DNA of 34,820 bases from a virus (lineage: Duplodnaviria; Heunggongvirae; Uroviricota; Caudoviricetes), in IMG/VR virus record IMGVR_UViG_2698536657_000023, positions 1-34,820 of that record; one strand, written 5' to 3'. Under the pieces are notes generated by a model that was given only the letters and a program-made list of their open reading frames with translations, did not search any database and had not been told where the DNA came from. The position numbers were made by a program, and so were the translations under genes. Shown in pieces: positions 1 to 31,475 of the stretch. Positions within the stretch are counted from its first letter, which is position 1; every line of letters begins with the position of its first letter.

Positions 1-1167
1 TCAGGCCTTATGGTGGAAATAATCACTCAGGCGAGAAAACATGCTGCCTTCCCCAACAGATTCCAGGGTAACCAGCGGCCAGTGCGCCACCTGTTTATCA
101 CGGTCGTAAAGTTCAATTTCCCCTACCCGCTGATGGGCGCTAATTGGCGCGGTGAGTTCTTTACCATCAAGGGTATATTTGGCTTTGATATGTGGAATTT
201 CGGCTTTCGGTAGTACCATCCAGAACTCTTGTTCTGTTCCCAGGGCGATATTTTCTTTATCGCCATACCAGATGCGTTCCGTACCGACCTTTTTCCCACG
301 GTGCAAAATTTGCACCGTAGTAAAGTTTTGTTGCCCCCAACGCAGTAATTTTCTTGCCTCTTCCTCACGACCTTTTGCACTGTCAGCCCCCATTACCACT
401 GCAATGAGACGACGCTGCCCATCTACAGCCGAAGCAATGAGGTTAAAACCGGCACCAGAAGTATGACCCGTTTTCAGGCCGTCAACATTCATGGTTTTAT
501 CCCACAACAACCCGTTACGGTTTTGCTGGGTGATACCGTTCCAGGTGAGACTTTTCTCACTGTACATATGATAAAACTCGGGCTCGCCGTGGATGATAGC
601 GCGAGAAAGCACAGCTAAATCATAAGCCGAGCTATGCTGGCCAGGTGCATCCAGACCATGCACTGTTTCAAAATGCGTATCCTTGAGATGCAGCTTCTCG
701 GCATAGTTGTTCATCATTTCAACAAACTGCCGTTGCCCACCGGCAATATAGTCAGCCAGAGCAACACAAGCGTCATTTCCGGAATCCACAATTAAACCAC
801 GGCTTAAATCACGTACCGATACGCGATCGCCCTCTTTCAAAAACATCAGTGAAGAACCGACAAACACCGGATTATCTTTCGCCCACGCATCGCGCCCCAC
901 GGTGACAATATCGTCTGGCGTAATGCGATGACTATCGATAGCGCGATCCACGACATAACCCGTCATCAGCTTTGTCAGGCTGGCGGGATTGCGCTGTTGA
1001 TGCTCATTACCCGCGGTGAGGATCTGACCGGTGGTGTAATCCATCAGTACCCAGGACCCGGCATGAATCTCTGGAGGCTGAGGTGAAAAAGGAATGTTTT
1101 CCGCCGCAAAACCAGACGATAAGTTAAAAACGAACAAAGAAGCAGCAATAATAAGACGGCGTTTCAA
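1..1167 (-). CDS. dacD: D-alanyl-D-alanine carboxypeptidase DacD (PBP6b), host gene
   Basis: Full-length ORF with signal peptide and the SxxK (SLTK), SGN and KTG motifs of low-MW class A PBPs; product recognised as E. coli DacD. Track start 1173 is an upstream TTG; 1167 (TTG, MKRRLII...) gives the 388-aa protein. Confidence 0.9.
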   Translation of the reverse strand: MKRRLIIAASLFVFNLSSGFAAENIPFSPQPPEIHAGSWVLMDYTTGQILTAGNEHQQRNPASLTKLMTGYVVDRAIDSHRITPDDIVTVGRDAWAKDNPVFVGSSLMFLKEGDRVSVRDLSRGLIVDSGNDACVALADYIAGGQRQFVEMMNNYAEKLHLKDTHFETVHGLDAPGQHSSAYDLAVLSRAIIHGEPEFYHMYSEKSLTWNGITQQNRNGLLWDKTMNVDGLKTGHTSGAGFNLIASAVDGQRRLIAVVMGADSAKGREEEARKLLRWGQQNFTTVQILHRGKKVGTERIWYGDKENIALGTEQEFWMVLPKAEIPHIKAKYTLDGKELTAPISAHQRVGEIELYDRDKQVAHWPLVTLESVGEGSMFSRLSDYFHHKA

Positions 1168-1846
1168 CAGCAAACCCTCAGGAGTTTCAAATAGCTGTTC
1201 TTTTTACGGAAATACTTATGAACTGGCTGGAATAAAGTGCAAGAAAATGTGACTACCCTCTCATTTTTATCTGACATGATCTGTTGCCACTCGCTGCCAA
1301 ATTGTGGCGCTAAAGCTGATTAGCACGGTGATATTTGATACTCTGGCAGACAGCAGAAATAACGGATTTAACCTAATGATGAATGACGGTAAGCAACAAT
1401 CTACCTTTTTGTTTCACGATTACGCGCAACACCCCTGAGAACCGCCATGAACAAGGGTTTCATGATTTGTGATTTTAGTTTGGTACGCAATTTGGTACAC
1501 AACACAATTTTCACTTCAGCGGGTAGTCATCAAACTCACCATAACGAGCATCGTTAATGATGTATGTGATCACCACAAATATCACATCTGGACTAGTTCC
1601 GTCTTCATGCGCAGGTATCTGTTCACGCCTCCCTTTCTGCAAATCCTAAAGATGAGATTTTGGGGTTTTGGGATATCTTTTTATCCTCAGTTCTCTATCA
1701 ATTCTACAAAGCAGTAATGAACCATCACTATGTGATAGTGAGGCATCCGCTACATTAAGCGCAGAGAAATGATGCAGTGGTGGGCGGACTGGCTTGATGA
1801 AAAGGTGGAGTGATGGTTATTCTAAATAAAAATAATGCATTAATTT

Positions 1847-1883: not shown

Positions 1884-3731
1884 TTAAAAAAACTCTTTTC
1901 CTGTTGTAAACATGCCTTCGGGAAGACGCGCACCGTTAACTGAAGAAAATATAGGACCATAATATTGCTTGTTATAGCTTTGTTGAAATGAAATATATCC
2001 ACCACCATATCCGTTATCTGACATATTTACTTGCGAAAAATAACAATTAATTGTTGACGCATCAATATCTCTAAACTGCTGCATGAATCCGCATTGGCCA
2101 ACAACAACATCACCATCATCTTCTTTTTTTGTTAAAATAGGAAGGTGAATCCAGTTAAAATTCCTTGCGCTCGTAGCCATATGTGTATACACGCGCTCGC
2201 AAATAATATCATCACCAGATGTTTTATTTATTGCATAATTTGTCACGTTTGCTCCATCGCCAAATATAGTTTCAGCAACATAGCTATATGTAGATGACGA
2301 AACTGTAAGCGTTGATGCTGTATGTAGTGTTACATGCCTTGATAAGAGCAATTTAGGAGCATAACCAGAATCAAGGTTAAAGGATGCATTTTCTGTCCTC
2401 AACCTTTGAAGAAAATCACTATGACCACCATGGTATGTACCGAAGAACTTTCCAGTTGATAATTCTTTTGCAGCAAACTCTGTTGCTCCATTCCCACCGA
2501 AGTAATATGAAGGCCCCCCATTCACAAAAGGAGTTATTGTTGCTATAAAATTGTCATAATCTAGTAATTCACAACATCCAAGGCTAAAAACGTTTAGCCC
2601 AACGAGATTTGCAGGTTGAAGCGTTGTCGTATCTGTATTTTCAACTTTAAGATACCAAGTTCCTCCAAGTCCATTTATTTCAATATCAATAGGAAGTGGT
2701 GGCTGACCACCTGGTAATATTTTTGTGTCAACGATCTTTTGCGTTGTCCAGTCAGTGTTGTTTCTGCTTATTGATATTGTTACTGACTTACTTGATGCAT
2801 TAGAGCATGCAAGTCTGACATGCGCTATGCTATTTGTTAACATATATGTTACATAAGCGTTTGTGGAAATTGAATAAACTTGAGGTGTGTTAAGGGTGAA
2901 ATCACCTTGTTCTGTTTCCGCGTGTATAGCGTCATCTGTTTTAGAAAAGCCATACAATGTACTTATTTGAGATTCAGTAAATGAAGATAGGGAGACGCCA
3001 GTGTCACTTTTTGTATGTGGTGATAATTTTGCGATAACTGCATCACTTACCATATATACACTTCCAGGCCTAAAAGGTGATGCCCCGCCATAGTTATTCG
3101 AGTCTGATGGTGAAACCTCATTTGTTACTCTATGAGAAATATATTTTCCTTTCCCATGACATCTTTTACTTATAATATAAAAGTCATTAGAATTTTCATC
3201 TTTGACTATTGCTTTTATGTGTGTTGTTATTGTAGGTGATGTTGGGGGGATGATTGATGTCACAAAGTTAACATCTATAGATTTTCGCACATTAATAAAT
3301 TCATCATCTATACTAGTAATTTTATCTTTTAACGTTCCATCTTCATATCCAATATTTTCAGTCCCATCAGGACCTGCGAGAGACTTTGATAGTTGATCCG
3401 GGTCATACTTCAGAACATTCGGAAAATAGAACTGCTGCGCACCATACGCATCATAAACAGCCATAGAGTGGCCTTGCACGGTTACAAACTTGGCAATCTG
3501 TCCGTTATATACCGGATATCCAGAAGCGTTAATGATGATTGGTTGCGAAACAGGAACGTGAGAACCGTCTTCATTTTCCACATAAACCTGAATCTGGTTT
3601 TCATGATTTACCGGGTCAGTGTCAATTTTACCGATATAAATTTTACCATTAGCTACGGCTTTAAAAGAACGAGCCATAGTGAAGAGTTGCGAAGGCATTC
3701 CTATAACCACATTTGGTGTTATATTAGTCAT
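1884..3731 (-). CDS. Tailspike protein; P22/Sf6-type head-binding N-domain with divergent receptor-binding body
   Basis: Residues MTNITPNVVIGMPSQLFTMARSFKAVANGKIYIGKIDTDPVN...VLKYDPDQ match the conserved N-terminal head-binding domain of P22 gp9/Sf6 tailspike. Start set at the internal ATG (3731) preceded by AGGA; the track ORF extends to 3833 in frame. Last gene of the late operon, as in P22. Confidence 0.85.
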   Translation of the reverse strand: MTNITPNVVIGMPSQLFTMARSFKAVANGKIYIGKIDTDPVNHENQIQVYVENEDGSHVPVSQPIIINASGYPVYNGQIAKFVTVQGHSMAVYDAYGAQQFYFPNVLKYDPDQLSKSLAGPDGTENIGYEDGTLKDKITSIDDEFINVRKSIDVNFVTSIIPPTSPTITTHIKAIVKDENSNDFYIISKRCHGKGKYISHRVTNEVSPSDSNNYGGASPFRPGSVYMVSDAVIAKLSPHTKSDTGVSLSSFTESQISTLYGFSKTDDAIHAETEQGDFTLNTPQVYSISTNAYVTYMLTNSIAHVRLACSNASSKSVTISISRNNTDWTTQKIVDTKILPGGQPPLPIDIEINGLGGTWYLKVENTDTTTLQPANLVGLNVFSLGCCELLDYDNFIATITPFVNGGPSYYFGGNGATEFAAKELSTGKFFGTYHGGHSDFLQRLRTENASFNLDSGYAPKLLLSRHVTLHTASTLTVSSSTYSYVAETIFGDGANVTNYAINKTSGDDIICERVYTHMATSARNFNWIHLPILTKKEDDGDVVVGQCGFMQQFRDIDASTINCYFSQVNMSDNGYGGGYISFQQSYNKQYYGPIFSSVNGARLPEGMFTTGKEFF

Positions 3732-3922
3732 GTGTGCAATCCTATTAGACTTGTTTGATAAAGAAGATAATGGAGTTAATGCTACAAATGACGCTATTGA
3801 TTTGAAAAATGATCTTCTATTCATATTAAACACACATTAATGCAGAAAATTTGCATTAATGTAAGCAAAAAGCGCAATCAACTCCATAGCAATTTAATTT
3901 TTAACTGTAATTTACATCTACA

Positions 3923-18972: not shown

Positions 18973-19410
18973 TCATCGAAGGCATTGCGTCCTGATGTAC
19001 TCCTGCAGGTAGTTAACCTGCGCGGTTATCCTGTCTATTCCACTTCGGAGACGGTAATAATTGAGTTCAGCATCTGCTGTAAGTCTTGGGCTTTCTCCAT
19101 CGCCCATGCTGCTGGCTCCGGTCGTTGACTTTGCACAGGTGGCGGCGACTTGCAGGCGCTTACGACCAGCAGAAACATCAGCACGGAGACTTTCGATAGT
19201 CGCGTTAGCATCAGCAAGCTCCTTTGTGTATCTGGCATCGAGTTCAGCTACATCACGTTGACGCTTCTGCATATCAGCGATGATGGATGTGGCTTTATCG
19301 CGCTGCTCTTTGTAGGTCATGGCGTTATCACGGTAATGATTAACAGCCCATGACAGGCAGACGATGATGCAGATAACCAGAGCGGAGATAATCGCGGTTA
19401 CTCTGCTCAT
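18973..19410 (-). CDS. Rz: Spanin inner-membrane subunit Rz (P22 gp15-type)
   Basis: 145 aa; N-terminal TM segment [30 protein letters not shown] and coiled-coil body; matches P22 Rz rather than lambda Rz after the first 35 residues; start coupled to R stop (ATGA). Confidence 0.85.
19035..19211 (-). CDS. Rz1: Spanin outer-membrane lipoprotein subunit Rz1, embedded in Rz +1 frame
   Basis: Embedded ORF with signal peptide, lipobox VSAC and Pro-rich mature region ([16 protein letters not shown]); start taken at internal Met (MLTRLSK...). Confidence 0.7.
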
Positions 19411-19883
19411 ACCTCAATCTCTCTGACCGTTCCGCCTGCTTCTTTGAATTTTGCAATCAGGTTGTCAGCCTTATGCTCGAACTGACCATAACCAGCGCCC
19501 GGCAGTGAAGCCCAGATATTGCTGCAACGGTCGATAGCCTGACGGATATCACCGCGATCAATCATCGGTAAAGCGCCACGCTCTTTAATCTGTTGCAGTG
19601 CCACAGCGTCCTGGCTTTTCGGAGAGAAATCTTTCAGGCCAAGCTGCTTACGATAGGCATCCCACCAACGGGAAAGAAGCTGGTAACGGCCTGCAGCTGT
19701 TGATTTGAGTTTGGGGTTTAGCGTGACAAGTTTGCGAGGGTGATCTGAGTAATCAGTGAATAGCTCTCCGCCTACAATGACGTCATAACCATGATTTCTG
19801 GTTTTCTGACGTCCGTTATCAGTCCCCTCTGACCACGCCAGCATATCGAGGAACGCCTTACGTTGATTATTGATTTCCACCAT
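19407..19883 (-). CDS. R: Endolysin, lambda R lytic transglycosylase
   Basis: 158 aa, essentially identical to lambda R ([39 protein letters not shown]...). Confidence 0.95.
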
Positions 19884-20190
19884 CTTCTACTCCGGCTTTT
19901 TTAGCAGCGAAGCGTTTGATAAGCGAACCAATCGAGTCAGTACCGATGTAGCCGATGAACACGCTCGTTATATAAGCGAGATTGCTACTTAGTCCGGCGA
20001 AGTCGAGAAGGTCACGAATGAACCAGGCGATAATGGCGCACATCGTTGCGTCGATTACTGTTTTTGTAAACGCACCGCCATTATATCTGCCGCGAAGGTA
20101 CGCCATTGCAAACGCAAGGATTGCCCCGATGCCTTGTTCCTTTGCCGCGAGAATGGCGGCTAACAGGTCATGTTTTTCTGGCATCTTCAT
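19867..20190 (-). CDS. S: Holin/antiholin, lambda S (S107/S105 dual start)
   Basis: 107 aa, [22 protein letters not shown]...; dual-start Met1/Met3 motif and three TM segments; near-identical to lambda S. Confidence 0.95.
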
Positions 20191-20587
20191 GTCTTACCCC
20201 CAATAAGGGGATTTGCTCTATTTAATTAGGAATAAGGTCGGTTACTGATAGAACAAATCCAGGCTACTGTGTTTAGTAATCAGATTTGTTCGTGACCGAT
20301 ATGCACGGGCAAAACGGCATGAGGTTGTTAGCGCAACCTCCTGCCACCCGCTTTCACGAAGGTCATGTGTAGAAGGCCGCAGCGTAACTATCACTGATGA
20401 ATTCAGGATAGCCAGTGGCTACGGCTCAGTTTAGGTTGTGCTGTTGCTGGGCGGCGATGACGCCTGTACGCATTTGGTGATCCGGTTCTGCTTCCGGCAT
20501 TCGCTTAATTCAGCACAACGATAAGAGCACTCGGTGCATTTAAGCCAAGCCCCATAAGGGAGAATGCTCTTACCTGTTGCACAGATA

Positions 20588-26998: not shown

Positions 26999-27000
26999 AA

Positions 27001-27273
27001 CTACCTGCCTTGACGAAAGACCTTAAGAACATCGTTAAACTGACTTACGGATATGTCTTCTTTGAGAAGCTTTTCCAGAAATGCGTTTGGAATGAACGTA
27101 TATCCCTCCTCTTTTGGTAGAGACGGGAGCAACGCCCTCGCCTCAGCCTTCAGAAGCTCAGTTCTGGCAACTTTCACAAAAGAGATTTGAGTTCTTTCAT
27201 CAATGGAACGAAGGAAGCGCAAACGCTTAGCTTCTTTGTGTGTATCAGGTGGATTAAAGCCTTTGTTTCGCAT
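27001..27273 (-). CDS. Hypothetical 90-aa basic protein between cII and initiator gene
   Basis: ATG with SD GAGGT 7 nt upstream; stop abuts the initiator start; the track ORF 27001..27546 is an upstream out-of-frame-to-cII extension. Confidence 0.55.
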   Translation of the reverse strand: MRNKGFNPPDTHKEAKRLRFLRSIDERTQISFVKVARTELLKAEARALLPSLPKEEGYTFIPNAFLEKLLKEDISVSQFNDVLKVFRQGR

Positions 27274-27295
27274 ATAATTACCTCGTTGGATGTTG

Positions 27296-27589
27296 TTAAA
27301 ATTCCATTTGTATTTGATCAGAACGCTCGGTTGCCGCCGGGCGTTTTTTATTGGTGAGAATCGAAGCAACTTGTCGTGCCAATCGAGCCATGTCGTCGTC
27401 GACAACACCCCATTCAAGAACAGCAAGCAGCATTGAGAACTTTGGAATCCAGTCCCTCTTCCACCTGCTGATCTGCGACTTATCAACGCCCACAGCTTCC
27501 GCTGTCTTCTCAGTTCCAAGCATTGCGATTTTGTTAAGCAACGCACTCTCGATTCTTAGAGCCTCGTTGCGTTTGTTTGCACGAACCAT
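27296..27589 (-). CDS. cII: Transcriptional activator CII (lambda type)
   Basis: 97 aa from MVRANKRNEALRIESALLNKIAMLGTEKTAEAVGVDKSQISRWKRDW..., near-identical to lambda CII; preceded by AAGGAAATACTTACAT as in lambda. Confidence 0.9.
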   Translation of the reverse strand: MVRANKRNEALRIESALLNKIAMLGTEKTAEAVGVDKSQISRWKRDWIPKFSMLLAVLEWGVVDDDMARLARQVASILTNKKRPAATERSDQIQMEF

Positions 27590-27647
27590 ATGTAAGTATT
27601 TCCTTAACAAATAAGAAGTTATGCGCATCAACTTATGCGCGTTGTAT

Positions 27648-27691
27648 TCCCGCATTTCGGCGGGAATGAGGACCATGACTGTTAAAGAGCG
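27648..27691 (-). promoter_or_regulatory. nutR (boxA + boxB)
   Basis: Minus strand CGCTCTTTAACA (boxA consensus) followed by hairpin UCCCGC-CGAAAU-GCGGGA, between cro and cII; boxB identical to the one at nutL. Confidence 0.6.
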
Positions 27692-27697
27692 GTGTTA

Positions 27698-27892
27698 CTA
27701 TTTGTTTTTCTTGTTGCTTGGGAAAGGACGAACTTCCTCTCCAATCACACTGCCATCAGGCTTTACCGTAACCATAATGTTACGGCCTGCCAGAATGGCC
27801 TTGCTGATAGCGCACTGGATTACACCAAAGTCACTGGCTGCTTTAGCCTGTCCATGGATTTTGGCGTAATCGGCAAGTGTCATTCGAATCAT
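27698..27892 (-). CDS. cro: Cro repressor (lambda-Cro fold, different specificity)
   Basis: Aligns with lambda Cro (TLxDYA...GQxKxAxDxGVxQxAIxKAIxAGR...DGSV..EEV.PFPSNKK); start set at ATG 27892 with GGAGAG SD; the track start is an upstream GTG. Confidence 0.85.
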
Positions 27893-27924
27893 ATGCACTC
27901 TCCGTTATTAACCATGAACAAAGA

Positions 27925-27987
27925 ATACTACAGGTATTCAAAGCAATCAATACTTAGGGTATTTTTAGTTTAAGTACCTTAGCTATT
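27925..27987. promoter_or_regulatory. OR operator triplet with divergent PR/PRM
   Basis: Three 13-bp sites ATACTACAGGTAT (27925-27937), ATACTTAGGGTAT (27950-27962), GTACCTTAGCTAT (27975-27987) at 25-bp spacing between cro and cI. Confidence 0.6.
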
Positions 27988-27998
27988 AGAATTAAGCT

Positions 27999-28715
27999 AT
28001 GGAAAATAAAAAATCACTGACGACAGAACAGCTGGAAGACGCTAAGCGGCTTAAGGCTTTGTATGAGTCAAAAAAGAAAGAATTGGGAATAACCCAATAC
28101 TCAATCGCTGATGAACTGGGTATCACCCAAGGAGCGGTAGGGCATTATCTTAATGGCAGAAATGCGCTAAACGTTGAGGTTGCATCTGGTTTTGCACGAT
28201 TGTTGCAAGTCTCAATTGCTGATTTTAGCCAGTCAATTGCTGCCAAGGTTGCAGAACAGGCAGAAAGCCTTAAGAGCGATGCCAACGTAAGGTATGCAGG
28301 GGAATACAGAGCAGGAAAGAGGTATCCGGTGTTAAGCAGTATCCAGGCTGGCTCGTGGTGTGAAGCATGCGAACCATACACCATTAAAGACATAGATGTT
28401 TGGCTTGAGTCTGACGCGCATATTCAAGGTAATGCGTTCTGGCTTAAAGTGGAAGGTGATTCAATGACGGCACCGGTTGGGTTAAGCATTCCAGAGGGAA
28501 CATTCGTTCTTTTCGATACCGGAAGGGAGGCGATCAACGGCAGCTTGGTCATAGCAAAACTTTCTGACTCTAACGAAGCAACATTCAAGAAGCTGATAAT
28601 CGACGGCGGAAATAAATACCTCAAGGGACTTAATCCTGCATGGCCTCTCGTGCCAATCAATGGAAACTGCAAGATTATAGGCGTTGCAATTGAGACAAAA
28701 CTCAGACTGGTTTGA
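27999..28715 (+). CDS. cI: CI prophage repressor (HTH N-domain, S24 LexA-like autopeptidase C-domain)
   Basis: 238 aa; N-terminus MENKKSLTTEQLEDAKRLKALYESKKKELG aligns with lambda CI but the recognition helix differs; C-domain has the GDSM serine and FKKL lysine; divergent from cro. Confidence 0.9.
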   Translation: MENKKSLTTEQLEDAKRLKALYESKKKELGITQYSIADELGITQGAVGHYLNGRNALNVEVASGFARLLQVSIADFSQSIAAKVAEQAESLKSDANVRYAGEYRAGKRYPVLSSIQAGSWCEACEPYTIKDIDVWLESDAHIQGNAFWLKVEGDSMTAPVGLSIPEGTFVLFDTGREAINGSLVIAKLSDSNEATFKKLIIDGGNKYLKGLNPAWPLVPINGNCKIIGVAIETKLRLV

Positions 28716-28733
28716 TCACGCAAGGGGGCGCTT

Positions 28734-29102
28734 ATGGTTGGAACCGCTATAGCAAGCTTTTTTGGGATGTTGGCAATCTCGACAATTTACGGCTTAGCGC
28801 ATGCTTTTATTGCGAAATCTCTATCAGAAAAAATAAGCCAGGCTTGGGCGCATAGATCAGCTCGTTTCATGATTCTGGTGATCATAGCAATACAAGGGAT
28901 ATCTGCATTTATCCTCTATGGATCAAGCTTATACCTATTGTATCAAGGCGCGACATTTACGCCTTACACCAGTGATTACGGAACTCTATACGATGGTAGT
29001 GAAGACATCACTGTGGCTTGGATCGTCTTTGGTTTATCTATGGCCGTGTCTGTTGTAGCAGACATCATTAAGGTAATTCTCGTCTTAACCTTCGCTGACT
29101 AA
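28734..29102 (+). CDS. Hypothetical 3-TM membrane protein co-transcribed with cI
   Basis: 122 aa with three predicted TM helices; ATG 18 nt after the cI stop with SD AGGGGG; occupies the lambda rexAB position. Confidence 0.7.
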   Translation: MVGTAIASFFGMLAISTIYGLAHAFIAKSLSEKISQAWAHRSARFMILVIIAIQGISAFILYGSSLYLLYQGATFTPYTSDYGTLYDGSEDITVAWIVFGLSMAVSVVADIIKVILVLTFAD

Positions 29103-29233
29103 CCTATAATCCCGGCAGCAATAGCTATCGGGATCCACTTCACATATCCCGCATAAAAAGCACTGAACAAGCAGACACCGAAAAAATAAATATCCTTTGT
29201 ATTCATTTGCTTATCATTATTTCATCAAAAATA

Positions 29234-29275
29234 AATACCTTGGGTATTTACACAATAAAATACCTACAGTATTCT
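29234..29275 (+). promoter_or_regulatory. OL operators and PL promoter
   Basis: Sites ATACCTTGGGTAT (29234-29246) and ATACCTACAGTAT (29260-29272) share the OR consensus; TTTACA-17 nt-TATTCT fits a sigma70 promoter pointing at N. Confidence 0.55.
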
Positions 29276-29321
29276 TTAGCCATCAGCAGGAAGCTGGAAG
29301 CCAAACGGAAAAGATTGGCAG

Positions 29322-29362
29322 GCTCTTTAACATTGATGGGATTGTCCCGCCGAAATGCGGGA
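29322..29362 (+). promoter_or_regulatory. nutL (boxA + boxB)
   Basis: GCTCTTTAACA (boxA, rrn-like) then hairpin TCCCGC-CGAAAT-GCGGGA, about 50 nt downstream of PL and 100 nt upstream of N. Confidence 0.6.
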
Positions 29363-29469
29363 ACCAAAGAGTAATTGGCTTTGGGGTGACGTGAAGTGCA
29401 GCTGCACGACGGCAACCGGAAGATAAGCACCCGGCGCGTCACCGCCAAAGTCAATCATCGGAGGTCAAC

Positions 29470-29769
29470 ATGACAGTAGTCATTACATATCTGGCTGACG
29501 ATAACGCCAGAAATCGCCGCAGAGCACGCAGACAGGCTCAACGTGAACAGGCGATGCAAGAACAGCGACTGGCGCGAAAAATTGCGCTAAAGCTCTCTGG
29601 TTGCGTCAGAGCGGATAAAGCAGCATCACTCGGAATCCTTCGCTGCAAGAAGGCAGATGAAGTCGAGAGTAAACAGAATCGTATTTACTACCGCAAGCCA
29701 CGCAGTGAAATGGGTGTGACTTGTGTTGGTCGCCAGAAAATGAAATTAGGCAGCAAACCACTTATTTGA
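29470..29769 (+). CDS. N-like transcription antiterminator
   Basis: 99-aa basic protein with arginine-rich motif NARNRRRARRQAQREQ near the N-terminus; strong SD GGAGG; first gene after PL/nutL. Confidence 0.65.
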   Translation: MTVVITYLADDNARNRRRARRQAQREQAMQEQRLARKIALKLSGCVRADKAASLGILRCKKADEVESKQNRIYYRKPRSEMGVTCVGRQKMKLGSKPLI

Positions 29770-29777
29770 GGTGATAT

Positions 29778-30248
29778 ATGACAAAATCATGGAGCGTACC
29801 TTTTCCTGAATCAGAAACTGAACATGATGGAATGCCTGTTTTCTGGAGATTCCAAGCGACAGTTGAAGAAGATGGAATCAAAATATTCGCACTTCAATAT
29901 ATAGCTTTTCATCAGACAGAGCATTATGCATGGTTGGTTCCTGCGCATTGGATTGTTAATTTTAAACCAGCACCAAATCAGTGGTTACAGGAATGGAAAC
30001 AAAGGAGAAATAGATATGCAATTAAGAAAGTAGCAAAAAATGCAGAAAGATCTTTTGCATTCCCGACGAAGAAACTTGCCATTGAAAGTTTATTGCGCCG
30101 GAAGAAATACCATTTGATGAGAATCAAACAAGATTTGGCTGTTGTATCAACTCTTGTTGATGGGATGAAGAATATTGATACATCAACACCAGGTATTGAA
30201 TATAACTTTGGACACAACCAAGAAACAGAAAACTGGGTGTTTTATTAG
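29778..30248 (+). CDS. Hypothetical Trp-rich protein, AT-rich gene downstream of N
   Basis: 156 aa; SD GAGGTGA; visibly lower GC than neighbours; soluble, basic; no recognised motif. Confidence 0.7.
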   Translation: MTKSWSVPFPESETEHDGMPVFWRFQATVEEDGIKIFALQYIAFHQTEHYAWLVPAHWIVNFKPAPNQWLQEWKQRRNRYAIKKVAKNAERSFAFPTKKLAIESLLRRKKYHLMRIKQDLAVVSTLVDGMKNIDTSTPGIEYNFGHNQETENWVFY

Positions 30249-30352
30249 TACGAATAAGCACTGTGTATTCATTCCAACGAGTGAATACACGGAGCAATGT
30301 CGCTCGTAACTAAACAGGAGCCGACTTGTTCTGATTATTGGAAATCTTCTTT

Positions 30353-30376
30353 GCCCTCCAGTGTGAGGGCTTTTTT
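30353..30376 (+). terminator. Strong intrinsic terminator (tL1-like)
   Basis: GCCCTC-CAGTGT-GAGGGC followed by TTTTTT. Confidence 0.75.
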
Positions 30377-30442
30377 ATATGCATACCAATAACGCTTCAC
30401 TCGAGGCGTTTTCGTTATGCAATCAAACAGAAGGAGCATCCT

Positions 30443-30613
30443 ATGCAACAGTTCGCTATTGCAGGGGCGGCATCGGTTCGCCCTTTCAACCCGATTTTAT
30501 CGGTACAGCATTCACGAAAAAACATTTTAACCGGAGCAGACTTTAAACAACCAAGAATGAAAAGCTTGCTCGAAAAGCTTTGGGATATTTTGAAACAACA
30601 AGGCCGTCCATGA
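30443..30613 (+). CDS. cIII: CIII-like protein (FtsH/HflB inhibitor)
   Basis: 56 aa from MQQFAIAG...KSLLEKLWDILKQQGRP, resembles lambda CIII (MQYAIAG...LIDILNQPG); SD AAGGAG; the track ORF starts upstream inside the terminator. Confidence 0.65.
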   Translation: MQQFAIAGAASVRPFNPILSVQHSRKNILTGADFKQPRMKSLLEKLWDILKQQGRP

Positions 30614-30780
30614 GTTTTACGGATAACTGGTCAGACGAAGAATTCATTCGTCAGATGAAAGATTTAATCGGTAACGAAGGAGATATTCATGTCACTTGCA
30701 ACCACAGTGAAGGAGAGCAAGTTACAGAGACGCATGTACACGCAGCAGGCGTTAATGTATCGCCAGAAGGGAGATCGTGA
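30610..30780 (+). CDS. Small hypothetical protein (kil/arf position)
   Basis: 56 aa, start coupled to the cIII stop (ATGA); acidic. Confidence 0.4.
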   Translation: MSFTDNWSDEEFIRQMKDLIGNEGDIHVTCNHSEGEQVTETHVHAAGVNVSPEGRS

Positions 30781-30869
30781 AGGTGTTCGCGTATTTTTAA
30801 ATGCGGCAAAGACTGAAGTATTAAATCAGCGTTATTTCCTTGGGCCGTGTCCATTCTGAGAACAATCAT

Positions 30870-31475
30870 ATGAGCAAAGAATTTTACGCAAGACTGGCAG
30901 CTATTCAGGAGAATCTGAACGCGCCAAAGAATCAGTACAACTCATTCGGTAAATATAAATACAGAAGCTGCGAAGACATTCTTGAAGGCGTTAAGCCGTT
31001 ACTGAATGGCCTGTTTTTATCAATCAGTGATGAAGTTGTGTTGATTGGTGATCGGTATTACGTGAAAGCCACGGCAACTATTACTGATGGCGAAAACAGT
31101 CATACGGCAACCGCTCTTGCACGAGAGGAAGAAAGCAAGAAAGGAATGGATTCTGCACAAGTTACGGGAGCTACAAGCTCTTATGCACGCAAGTATTGCC
31201 TCAATGGTTTGTTCGGCATTGATGATGCGAAAGATGCAGATACCGACGAGCATAAACATCAGCAGAACGCAGCAGCAAAGCAATCAAAACCATCACCTAC
31301 ACCTGAACAGGTTCTAAAAGCATTCACTGACGCAGCAATGCAGAAAAACACTGTAGAAGAGCTTAAACAGGCGTTCGCCAAAGCGTGGAAGATGCTCGAA
31401 GGCACACCGGAGCAGCACAAAGCGCAGGACGTTTACAACATCAGACGAGACGAATTAGAAGGAGCTGCTGCTTAA
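30870..31475 (+). CDS. erf: Erf single-strand annealing recombinase (P22 type)
   Basis: 201 aa from MSKEFYARLAAIQENLNAPKNQYNSFGKYKYRSCEDILEGVKPLL..., closely matches P22 Erf. Confidence 0.9.
   Translation: MSKEFYARLAAIQENLNAPKNQYNSFGKYKYRSCEDILEGVKPLLNGLFLSISDEVVLIGDRYYVKATATITDGENSHTATALAREEESKKGMDSAQVTGATSSYARKYCLNGLFGIDDAKDADTDEHKHQQNAAAKQSKPSPTPEQVLKAFTDAAMQKNTVEELKQAFAKAWKMLEGTPEQHKAQDVYNIRRDELEGAAA

What the first reader, a model, noticed from the sequence alone, without database searches (positions are those of the whole stretch)
28734..29102. Lysogen-expressed 3-TM membrane protein in the cI-downstream (rex/BstA-type) slot
A 122-aa protein with three predicted TM helices starts 18 nt after the cI stop with its own strong SD, so it should be made from PRM in the lysogen. 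Genes at this locus in other lambdoid phages (lambda rexAB, and defence genes placed downstream of the repressor in P22-like prophages) exclude or abort superinfecting phage. This one is a single small membrane protein, not a rexA/rexB pair, and I recognise no family. It is the best candidate here for an undescribed exclusion or abortive-infection function.
Basis: partly seen in the sequence, partly recalled or inferred. Interest (0 to 1): 0.6.

Follow-up and report, generated by a model that had tools for sequence, protein, structure and literature searches.

The report
Small membrane protein co-transcribed with repressor
This is a real, conserved gene (hkaS of phage HK620) for a small three-helix inner-membrane protein that sits in one operon with the prophage repressor, in a slot where related prophages carry anti-phage genes. 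Its function has never been tested, and no database gives a clue to it.

Summary
ORF 28734-29102 (+) starts 18 nt after the cI stop, has a Shine-Dalgarno (SD) sequence AAGGGGG five nt upstream, and encodes a 122-aa protein with three hydrophobic helices.

It is not unrecorded. It is hkaS of coliphage HK620 (annotated "unknown", 2001) and PHROG 6534. It is present, always together with cI, in 146 of 5426 complete E. coli genomes.

It is a real gene: dN/dS is 0.13-0.2 and 80 of 80 viral copies are intact.

Every homologue lies 17-20 nt after a cI gene with the same C-terminal domain and is followed by a hairpin (a canonical terminator in one lineage). This fits a cI-hkaS operon.

In prophages with related cI genes the same slot holds RexA, BstA and several PADLOC candidate defence families.

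An anti-phage role is therefore a reasonable guess by position, most plausibly a block of genome entry at the inner membrane. Nothing here tests it. This is a good experimental candidate, not a discovery.

The parts
27923..27988 (.). OR operators: OR1 27923-27939, OR2 27948-27964, OR3 27972-27988
   Evidence: Transferred from the HK620 record annotation. OR1 and OR2 match the core AATAYN5GTATT perfectly. OR3 is degenerate.
27964..27992 (+). Probable PRM: -35 TTTAGT (27964-27969), 17-nt spacer, -10 TAGAAT (27987-27992). The predicted start is at about 27999, which would give a leaderless cI mRNA.
   Evidence: Read from the sequence by analogy with lambda PRM (my own knowledge). The consensus scan did not call it, and it is not shown experimentally.
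27999..28715 (+). cI repressor, 238 aa (HTH_3 plus Peptidase_S24)
   Evidence: Pfam PF01381 E 8e-10 and PF00717 E 5e-24. It is 99.6% identical to HK620 cI.
28722..28728 (+). Shine-Dalgarno AAGGGGG of hkaS
   Evidence: Sequence. The position is conserved as AAGGA/AAGGG in four lineages. The G-run length varies between copies (G4, G5, G5A).
28734..29102 (+). hkaS, a 122-aa inner-membrane protein. TM1 is aa 2-29 (28737-28820). The cytoplasmic basic loop with a short helix is aa 30-40. TM2 is aa 41-73 (28854-28952). The periplasmic acidic loop with a beta-hairpin is aa 74-88. TM3 is aa 89-121 (28998-29096).
29109..29134 (+). Stem-loop 7 nt after the hkaS stop, probably the end of the cI-hkaS transcript
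   Evidence: Free energy is -13.7 kcal/mol, z = -3.4. Hairpins occur at the same position with unrelated sequence in L003, L007 and L009. L118 has a canonical stem plus T6 terminator there. There is no T-run in the window, and the terminator scan did not call it.
29188..29204 (.). Third CI operator-like site on the OL side (AAATATCCTTTGTATTC)
   Evidence: It matches the operator core perfectly and is conserved in L003, L007 and L009. The HK620 record labels this stretch tIMM.
29233..29275 (+). OL2 (29233-29249), OL1 (29258-29274) and PL (TTTACA-17-TATTCT, 29247-29275)
   Evidence: HK620 annotation, perfect operator cores and the promoter scan.
29470..29769 (+). N antiterminator, the far boundary of the slot
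   Evidence: PHROG 271 E 3e-36

Best explanation
hkaS is a real gene for a polytopic inner-membrane protein with three TM helices. The N-terminus is predicted periplasmic, the basic loop 1 and the C-terminus cytoplasmic, and the acidic loop 2 periplasmic.

It forms a two-gene operon with the CI repressor: PRM (and PRE during establishment), then cI, an 18-nt gap, hkaS and a hairpin or terminator just before OL. It should therefore be made in every lysogen at a level tied to that of the repressor.

It is cargo in the cI-to-N accessory slot of the HK620-type immunity module. That module travels between P22-like, lambda-like and Stx phages.

The most likely function is protection of the lysogen against superinfecting heteroimmune phages at the inner membrane. 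The most plausible mechanism is interference with genome entry (superinfection exclusion), acting alone or through a host membrane protein. This would be analogous in principle to P22 SieA or T4 Imm.

- **Shown:** the gene is real, the family is an orphan, and the position and operon architecture are as described.
- **Strongly predicted:** membrane topology.
- **Inferred by analogy only:** expression in lysogens, any anti-phage effect, and the entry-block mechanism.

Rough likelihoods are above 0.9 for the gene, the membrane location and the operon, about 0.5 for any anti-phage role, and about 0.3-0.35 for entry block specifically.
For: - **Real gene:** dN/dS is 0.135-0.205, and pN is 0.27 where pS is saturated at 0.80. 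80 of 80 viral copies are intact. The cI+hkaS block is complete in all 146 E. coli genomes that carry it.
- **Membrane protein:** hydropathy, AF2 model with pLDDT 92 and pTM 0.79, and loop charges in all homologues.
- **Operon:** the gap is 17-20 nt with a conserved SD in every context examined. A hairpin follows the stop in four lineages, and L118 has a canonical terminator there. The scan found no promoter between the two genes. The analogous cI-bstA pair is one transcript from one start site (PMC7067206).
- **Defence slot:** the same position after related cI genes holds RexA, BstA, PDC-S42, PDC-M03A, PDC-M63A and PDC-S43. Owen et al. 2021 make the same point (PMC8585504).
- **No constant partner:** only cI, cro and the operators are always nearby, while the flanking replication and N modules differ. 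The protein must therefore act alone or with host factors.
[quoted passage not shown] HkaS has almost no soluble domain that could sense infection. This favours a passive block over a triggered suicide.
Against: - No expression or phenotype data were found.
- The tight linkage to cI needs no functional explanation. Anything between OR and OL is trapped in the immunity region, because both operator sets must match the repressor.
- The best-conserved surfaces are the cytoplasmic loop (KISQAWAHRxARF) and the C-terminal ILVLTFAD. A periplasmic face that meets an incoming phage would be expected to be the conserved one.
- The periplasmic loop is only about 20 residues.
- Many PADLOC 'PDC' families are untested candidates, so the base rate for the slot is soft.
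Confidence: 0.35

Rival explanations
1. Abortive-infection effector. HkaS sits harmlessly in the membrane and, when triggered by a superinfecting phage, forms a pore or depolarises the cell. This would be a one-protein analogue of RexB, or a holin-like trigger, and would kill the infected cell before progeny form.
For: - It occupies the same slot as lambda rexAB and as RexA and BstA in related prophages.
- The three-helix N-out/C-in topology is that of class I holins (my own knowledge).
- Each helix has an invariant polar face: S8/S16/Y19, Q54/S65 and S106/D110/K113, including a buried Asp/Lys pair in TM3. This would suit an ion path or oligomerisation.
Against: - There is no sensor partner. 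No RexA-like gene lies in the slot, and nothing else is constantly linked.
- hhalign against RexB gives probability 0.7%.
- No holin family was hit in Pfam or PHROGs.
- It lacks the charged C-terminal tail typical of holins; the protein ends in LTFAD.
- It has almost no soluble surface with which to detect infection.
Confidence: 0.13
2. Not a defence gene. HkaS serves the prophage or host in another way. It might modulate a host inner-membrane machine such as a transporter or the FtsH/HflKC protease. That could tune lysogenisation, induction, lysis timing or host physiology (lysogenic conversion).
For: - The most conserved parts face the cytoplasm: loop 1 and the invariant C-terminus. This fits binding to a conserved host partner rather than to variable phage proteins.
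- Every source calls it hypothetical and no defence model hits it.
- It would also be made from PRE during establishment of lysogeny, as inferred from the architecture.
- Lambda RexB itself has reported non-defence effects on proteolysis (my own knowledge).
Against: - There is no positive evidence for any specific partner.
- Cargo in this slot in related prophages is dominated by known or candidate defence families.
- The protein evolves about three times faster than cI (pN 0.27 against 0.08).
Confidence: 0.27
3. Hitchhiker. HkaS is a decaying or functionless ORF that persists only because it is trapped between cI and OL, perhaps serving merely as spacer DNA for OL-OR looping.
For: - It is strictly linked to the cI C-terminal segment in all contexts.
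- Rare variants with a frameshifted N-terminus exist (P0006, P0007, P0009).
Against: - dN/dS is 0.13-0.2.
- The length is exactly 122 codons at 52% identity, with 43 invariant residues in the 7-sequence alignment A2 (35 in the 11-sequence alignment A1 that includes the frameshifted variants).
- The SD is conserved.
- 80 of 80 and 146 of 146 copies are intact or complete.
- The AF2 model is confident even from a 7-sequence alignment.
Confidence: 0.04

Closest known systems
HkaS of coliphage HK620 (AAK28867.1) / PHROG 6534
   Same: It is the same gene. The protein is 99.2% identical and lies in the same position between cI and OL. The PHROG 6534 match is full length at E 2.4e-79.
   Different: Nothing differs. 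The family has carried the label 'unknown' or 'hypothetical protein' in every source since 2001.
Lambda RexB (with RexA)
   Same: It is a small polytopic inner-membrane protein encoded downstream of cI on the PRM transcript, just before OL.
   Different: There is no homology (hhalign probability 0.7%). HkaS has 3 predicted helices in 122 aa, whereas RexB has about 4 (my own knowledge) in 144 aa. No RexA partner is present. The RexB mechanism (RexA-activated channel) therefore cannot simply be transferred.
P22 SieA
   Same: It is a prophage-expressed, exclusively inner-membrane protein. It is by itself necessary and sufficient to block DNA entry (PMC10883804). This is the best functional analogy for a stand-alone membrane protein.
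   Different: There is no sequence relationship, and the SieA motif FxRYPxEAxxFNK is absent from HkaS. sieA has its own promoter (PMC10883804) and lies elsewhere in the genome, not in the repressor operon (my own knowledge). Exclusion by HkaS is untested.
BstA of prophage BTP1
   Same: It lies immediately downstream of cI and is co-transcribed with it from one start site (PMC7067206). It occupies this very slot after related cI genes in L097 and L132.
   Different: BstA is a soluble protein of about 300 aa with a DNA-binding domain that mediates abortive infection. HkaS does not hit the PADLOC BstA model.
T4 Imm and other small membrane superinfection-exclusion proteins
   Same: They are very small, almost entirely membrane-embedded proteins that act alone against DNA injection (my own knowledge).
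   Different: No PHROG annotated as an exclusion protein matched at E <= 1. Helix number and genomic context differ.
Class I holins (lambda S type)
   Same: They are about 100-120 aa with three TM helices in N-out/C-in topology (my own knowledge).
   Different: No holin family was hit. HkaS has no charged C-terminal tail. It is not in the lysis cassette, which in this window lies around 19400-20200.

Membership tests
HkaS / PHROG 6534 | Full-length match to the family profile | tested here: met
   E 2.4e-79 over residues 1-122 of 122. The protein is 99.2% identical to HK620 HkaS.
HkaS / PHROG 6534 | Position 17-20 nt downstream of a cI gene with the HK620-type C-terminal domain, upstream of OL and N | tested here: met
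   True in the window, HK620, HK630, L003-L011 and L118.
Immunity-operon cargo (accessory gene in the cI-to-N hotspot) | Same strand as cI with no terminator between them, and a terminator after the cargo | tested here: met
   The gap is 18 nt. A hairpin lies at 29109-29134 and in three other lineages. L118 has a canonical terminator. The window hairpin lacks a T-run.
Immunity-operon cargo (accessory gene in the cI-to-N hotspot) | Slot content varies among prophages with related repressors | tested here: met
   The slot holds RexA, BstA, PDC-S42, PDC-M03A, PDC-M63A, PDC-S43, NYN, DUF1275, lipoprotein-like ORFs and others.
Immunity-operon cargo (accessory gene in the cI-to-N hotspot) | Expressed in the lysogen | not testable with these tools
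   No transcriptome or proteome data were found for a lysogen carrying this module.
Lambda RexB | Sequence or profile homology to RexB | tested here: not met
   hhalign probability 0.7%. There was no Pfam or PADLOC hit.
Lambda RexB | Adjacent RexA partner | tested here: not met
   hkaS starts 18 nt after cI, and the next + strand gene is N.
P22 SieA | Sequence similarity, including the cytoplasmic motif FxRYPxEAxxFNK (PMC10883804) | tested here: not met
   The motif is absent from the 122-aa sequence. No exclusion PHROG was hit.
P22 SieA | Blocks DNA delivery across the inner membrane | not testable with these tools
   This needs plating and K+ efflux or DNA-entry assays.
BstA | Match to the BstA profile | tested here: not met
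   PADLOC gave no hit for HkaS. The same model scores E 1e-115 on L097.
Class I holin | Three TM helices, N-out/C-in | tested here: met
   Predicted only.
Class I holin | Holin family match, charged C-terminal tail, location next to the endolysin | tested here: not met
   No holin hit. The protein ends in ...ILVLTFAD. The gene is in the immunity region.

The most novel reading that the evidence does not exclude
HkaS founds a new class of stand-alone prophage defence protein. It would be a 122-aa, sensor-less, three-helix inner-membrane protein with no detectable relatives. Made with the repressor, it would stop heteroimmune phages at the membrane. It could do so by jamming a host DNA-entry component or ejection-protein conduit, or by a membrane-level trigger using its conserved intramembrane Asp110/Lys113 face. 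Because it rides in an immunity module that moves between P22-like, lambda-like and Stx phages, it would be a portable resistance determinant already present in about 3% of E. coli genomes.
Probability: 0.4. Interest if true: 0.6.

Novelty: new member of a known kind. Interest (0 to 1): 0.4.

Why it matters
- **Prevalence.** The HK620-type immunity module is common. It is in 146 of 5426 complete E. coli genomes, the exact protein is on at least 1000 contigs, and it also occurs in Salmonella, Enterobacter, Hafnia and Buttiauxella. It is carried by P22-like, lambda-like and Stx-converting phages.
- **If HkaS excludes other phages.** It would then be a widespread, unannotated determinant of phage susceptibility, relevant to phage therapy and STEC prophage ecology. 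It would also be a minimal model for how a tiny membrane protein blocks infection.
- **If it does something else.** It would still be a protein made in every such lysogen, at a level tied to repressor expression, whose function is unknown.
- **Cost of testing.** The experiment is cheap: one 369-bp gene and a phage panel.

Tried and rejected
- **Profile libraries.** Pfam gave only sub-threshold transmembrane noise (Cation_ATPase_C, 17.6 bits against a cut-off of 27.3). NCBIfam and PADLOC gave nothing.
- **Remote homology.** A family HMM searched against 1.84 billion representative proteins found only the family itself. The word-indexed search found 12 clusters, all at 52% identity or more. A profile search of PDB sequences found nothing.
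- **Signal peptide.** I considered that TM1 might be a cleaved signal peptide, since the window sequence has AHA-F at residues 22-25. I rejected this because there is no basic N-region, the motif is not conserved in homologues, and cleavage would contradict the positive-inside pattern.
- **Internal promoter.** No promoter for hkaS alone (the lambda PLIT analogue) was found.
- **Rfam.** Nothing was found in 27000-31000.
- **Literature.** 'HkaS' alone retrieves a fungal herbarium code. HK620+hkaS, the accession numbers, HK630/HK140 and mEpX2 gave nothing on function.
- **35-aa minus-strand ORF at 29099-29206.** I considered it as a type I toxin-like partner. I rejected it because it is absent in L003, L007 and L118 and has no SD.

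Full report
**1. The observation**

The upstream gene, 27999..28715, is a CI-type repressor with HTH_3 (E 8e-10) and Peptidase_S24 (E 5e-24) domains. Its TGA ends at 28715, so 18 nt separate the two genes. AAGGGGG at 28722-28728 lies 5 nt before the ATG.

Kyte-Doolittle hydropathy (19-residue window) gives three peaks above 1.6, at residues 1-27, 42-68 and 91-122.

**2. Identity**

Megablast of 27600-29800 against phage records shows that the block is the immunity region of coliphage HK620 (98.7% identity). The same block occurs in HK630, HK140, mEpX2, HF4s, HZ41 and two Stx2c phages.

In the HK620 record the ORF is 'hkaS, unknown' (AAK28867.1), between cI and OL/PL. In HK630 it is 'HkaS protein'. 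It matches PHROG 6534 ('unknown function') end to end at E 2.4e-79.

The gene has therefore been catalogued since 2001, but without a function. Every source name in a 525-member cluster is 'hypothetical protein', and the exact window sequence is on at least 1000 contigs.

The window itself is a P22-like prophage, with CUS-3, E212 and Kapi1 as nearest relatives, carrying this immunity module.

**3. Is it a real gene?**

Yes.
- Homologues down to 52% identity all have exactly 122 codons. 35 columns are invariant in the 11-sequence alignment and 43 in the cleaned 7-sequence alignment.
- Nei-Gojobori dN/dS is 0.135 (window against Hafnia) and 0.205 (Salmonella against Hafnia). In the most distant pairs pS is saturated at about 0.8 while pN is 0.27-0.33.
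- All 80 IMG/VR copies retrieved are intact. They comprise 24 protein alleles that differ only by conservative changes.
- In complete E. coli genomes the cI-hkaS-OL block occurs in 146 of 5426, always whole.
- Three rare clusters (P0006, P0007, P0009) have an N-terminus in another frame. These are pseudogenes or assembly errors.

**4. The protein**

AlphaFold2 on the 7-sequence alignment gives a confident model (mean pLDDT 92.1, pTM 0.79). It has helices at 2-29, 31-38, 41-73 and 89-121, and a small beta-hairpin in the loop between residues 74 and 88.

In every homologue loop 1 (28-44) has 3-5 K/R and at most one acidic residue. Loop 2 (72-93) has 2-4 D/E and at most one basic residue. By the positive-inside rule the N-terminus and loop 2 are periplasmic, and loop 1 and the C-terminus are cytoplasmic.

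The best-conserved stretches are:
- the cytoplasmic loop KISQAWAHRxARF;
- the periplasmic end of TM2, S-x-YLLYQGATFxPY;
- the C-terminal D110-I-x-K113-x-ILVLTFAD.

Each helix has an invariant polar face: S8/S16/Y19, Q54/S65 and S106/D110/K113.

TM1 is not a cleavable signal peptide. It has no basic N-region, and the AHA motif is not conserved.

**5. Relatives: none**

| Search | Result |
|---|---|
| Pfam | sub-threshold transmembrane noise only |
| NCBIfam | nothing |
| PADLOC | nothing |
| Family HMM against 1.84 billion representatives | only the family itself |
| Profile against PDB sequences | nothing |
| Foldseek, BFVD and PDB | nothing below E 0.3 |
| hhalign against lambda RexB | probability 0.7% |

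The family is confined to Enterobacterales prophages: Escherichia, Salmonella, Enterobacter, Hafnia and Buttiauxella.

**6. Context and operon**

In every context retrieved, the gene lies 17-20 nt after a cI gene and before OL, PL and N, with an AAGGA/AAGGG SD at a fixed distance. These contexts are Salmonella L003-L006, an unknown host L007, and Hafnia-like L008-L011. The replication genes on one side and the N and early-left genes on the other side differ between them. The spacer varies only through a G-run.

A stable hairpin follows the stop codon in four lineages, with unrelated sequences (z -3.4 to -3.8 in three of them). In the Buttiauxella locus L118 it is a textbook terminator, AACCCGGA...TCCGGGTT followed by T6. 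The consensus scan found no promoter between cI and hkaS.

Reading the sequence, TTTAGT-17-TAGAAT at 27964-27992 would start transcription at about the cI ATG. That is a lambda-PRM-like leaderless arrangement, and it is my inference.

The architecture is therefore that of a cI-hkaS operon. This matches what was demonstrated for cI-bstA in BTP1 (PMC7067206). Expression in lysogens is inferred, not shown.

**7. Linkage**

| Locus | cI identity | HkaS identity |
|---|---|---|
| L009-L011 (Hafnia-like) | 95% | 83% |
| L003-L005 (Salmonella) | 86-87% | 61% |
| L007 (unknown host) | 88% | 52.5% |

The protein therefore evolves about three times faster than cI (pN 0.27 against 0.08) while remaining under purifying selection.

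In L118 the cI N-terminal DNA-binding domain is unrelated (26% identity) and the operators differ. The C-terminal domain is 86% identical, and HkaS (56% identical) follows it.

HkaS is thus physically linked to the cI C-terminal segment and occurs with at least two immunity specificities. It is not tied to operator recognition.

The linkage needs no functional explanation. Genes between OR and OL are trapped, because both operator sets must match the repressor.

**8. The slot**

I fetched 80 loci encoding cI relatives (40-76% identity) from other species and looked at the first ORF downstream.

One was HkaS (L118). Of 20 others tested, 8 gave strong PADLOC hits:
- RexA (L094, E 2e-110);
- BstA (L097 and L132, E 1e-115 and 1e-112);
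- PDC-S42 (L101);
- PDC-M03A, HipA-like (L139);
- PDC-M63A (L106, L134);
- PDC-S43 (L144).

An NYN nuclease gave a weaker hit. Others include a DUF1275 multi-pass membrane protein, a Tlde1-domain protein and lipoprotein-like ORFs.

This confirms with data the statement in PMC8585504 and PMC7067206 that the cI-to-N region is a mosaic hotspot holding rexAB and bstA. PDC families are untested candidates, so the base rate is indicative only.

**9. Mechanism**

What can be said firmly is limited. HkaS is a small inner-membrane protein that is almost certainly made with the repressor, has no constant partner other than cI and cro, and sits in a slot enriched for defence genes.

I put about 0.5 on an anti-phage role. 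Within that, I favour a block of genome entry (about 0.3-0.35 overall) over abortive infection (about 0.13). There are two reasons:
- HkaS has no sensor partner and almost no soluble surface.
- Single inner-membrane proteins are known to suffice for exclusion. P22 SieA is necessary and sufficient and acts on the ejection-protein conduit (PMC10883804). Inner-membrane entry factors such as ManYZ are known points of attack (PMC6832061, PMC13190303).

Against this, the most conserved surfaces are cytoplasmic. That fits binding to a conserved host machine, and leaves real room (about 0.27) for a non-defence role in lysogeny control or host physiology. A functionless hitchhiker is nearly excluded by the selection signature.

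**10. Comparison with known systems**

HkaS is a member of the HkaS/PHROG 6534 family, whose function is unknown. It is a member of the class 'cargo of the repressor operon' by position.

It is not a member of RexB, SieA, BstA or any holin family. The defining sequence features of each were tested and not met. It may still work like SieA or Imm, or less likely like RexB.

**11. Verdict**

Its hypothesis is reasonable but unsupported beyond position. The gene is already catalogued.

It is a worthwhile and inexpensive experimental target rather than a surprising finding. Interest is 0.4. Novelty is 'new member of a known kind': an uncharacterised cargo family in a known hotspot.

Noticed in passing
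window 29188-29204 (and 29211-29227): A perfect match to the CI operator core (AATAYN5GTATT) lies 45 bp upstream of OL2 and is conserved in Salmonella, Hafnia-like and unknown-host lineages. The HK620 GenBank record labels this stretch 'tIMM terminator'. It places OL3 at the equivalent of 29211-29227, which does not fit the operator pattern. The third OL operator is probably mis-assigned in the record.
   Followed up: partly
window 29099-29206 (- strand): A 35-aa very hydrophobic ORF (MNTKDIYFFGVCLFSAFYAGYVKWIPIAIAAGIIG) is convergent with hkaS and overlaps it. It is present in HK620, but not in the Salmonella (L003), L007 or Buttiauxella (L118) lineages. It has no SD. It is probably spurious and not a type I toxin.
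   Followed up: yes
window 29778-30248 (+): A 156-aa ORF directly after N is strongly AT-rich (GC 36.7%, GC3 29%, against 47.9% for the prophage). It matches PHROG 1636, 'unknown function' (E 1e-111). HK620 has a different gene (hkaQ) at this position. It looks like a second accessory or moron slot in the PL operon.
   Followed up: no
L118 2495-3543 (Buttiauxella): This is a mosaic cI. The N-terminal DNA-binding domain is only 26% identical to the window cI and the operators differ, while the C-terminal domain is 86% identical and is followed by an HkaS homologue (56%). A recombination joint lies inside cI, between the two domains.
   Followed up: yes
window 28724-28728: The G-run in the hkaS Shine-Dalgarno is length-polymorphic among 80 viral copies: G4 in 63, G5 in 12 and G5+A in 4. 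This changes the cI-hkaS spacer from 17 to 19 nt.
   Followed up: partly
window 28889-28903: A one-mismatch operator-like site (GATATCCCTTGTATT on the - strand) lies inside hkaS. The codons there are not conserved in distant homologues, so it is probably chance. About 3 such sites are expected by chance in the window.
   Followed up: partly
window 1-1173 (- strand): The left end encodes what looks like a host D-alanyl-D-alanine carboxypeptidase (PBP5/6-like, with an SLTK motif). One prophage end therefore lies between about 1200 and 1880, next to the tailspike gene (1884-3833).
   Followed up: no
L145, L146, L147, L155 (about 3109-3540): After more distant cI relatives, the slot holds a 135-aa protein with a signal or lipoprotein-type N-terminus (for example MRILFLIIIIALSGC...). 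It has no Pfam or PADLOC hit. It is another uncharacterised envelope cargo of the same slot.
   Followed up: partly
P0006, P0007, P0009: Rare hkaS variants have an N-terminus that reads in the +2 frame (starting at the TTG at 28712) and rejoins the hkaS frame near residue 28. These are either compensated frameshifts or assembly errors.
   Followed up: no
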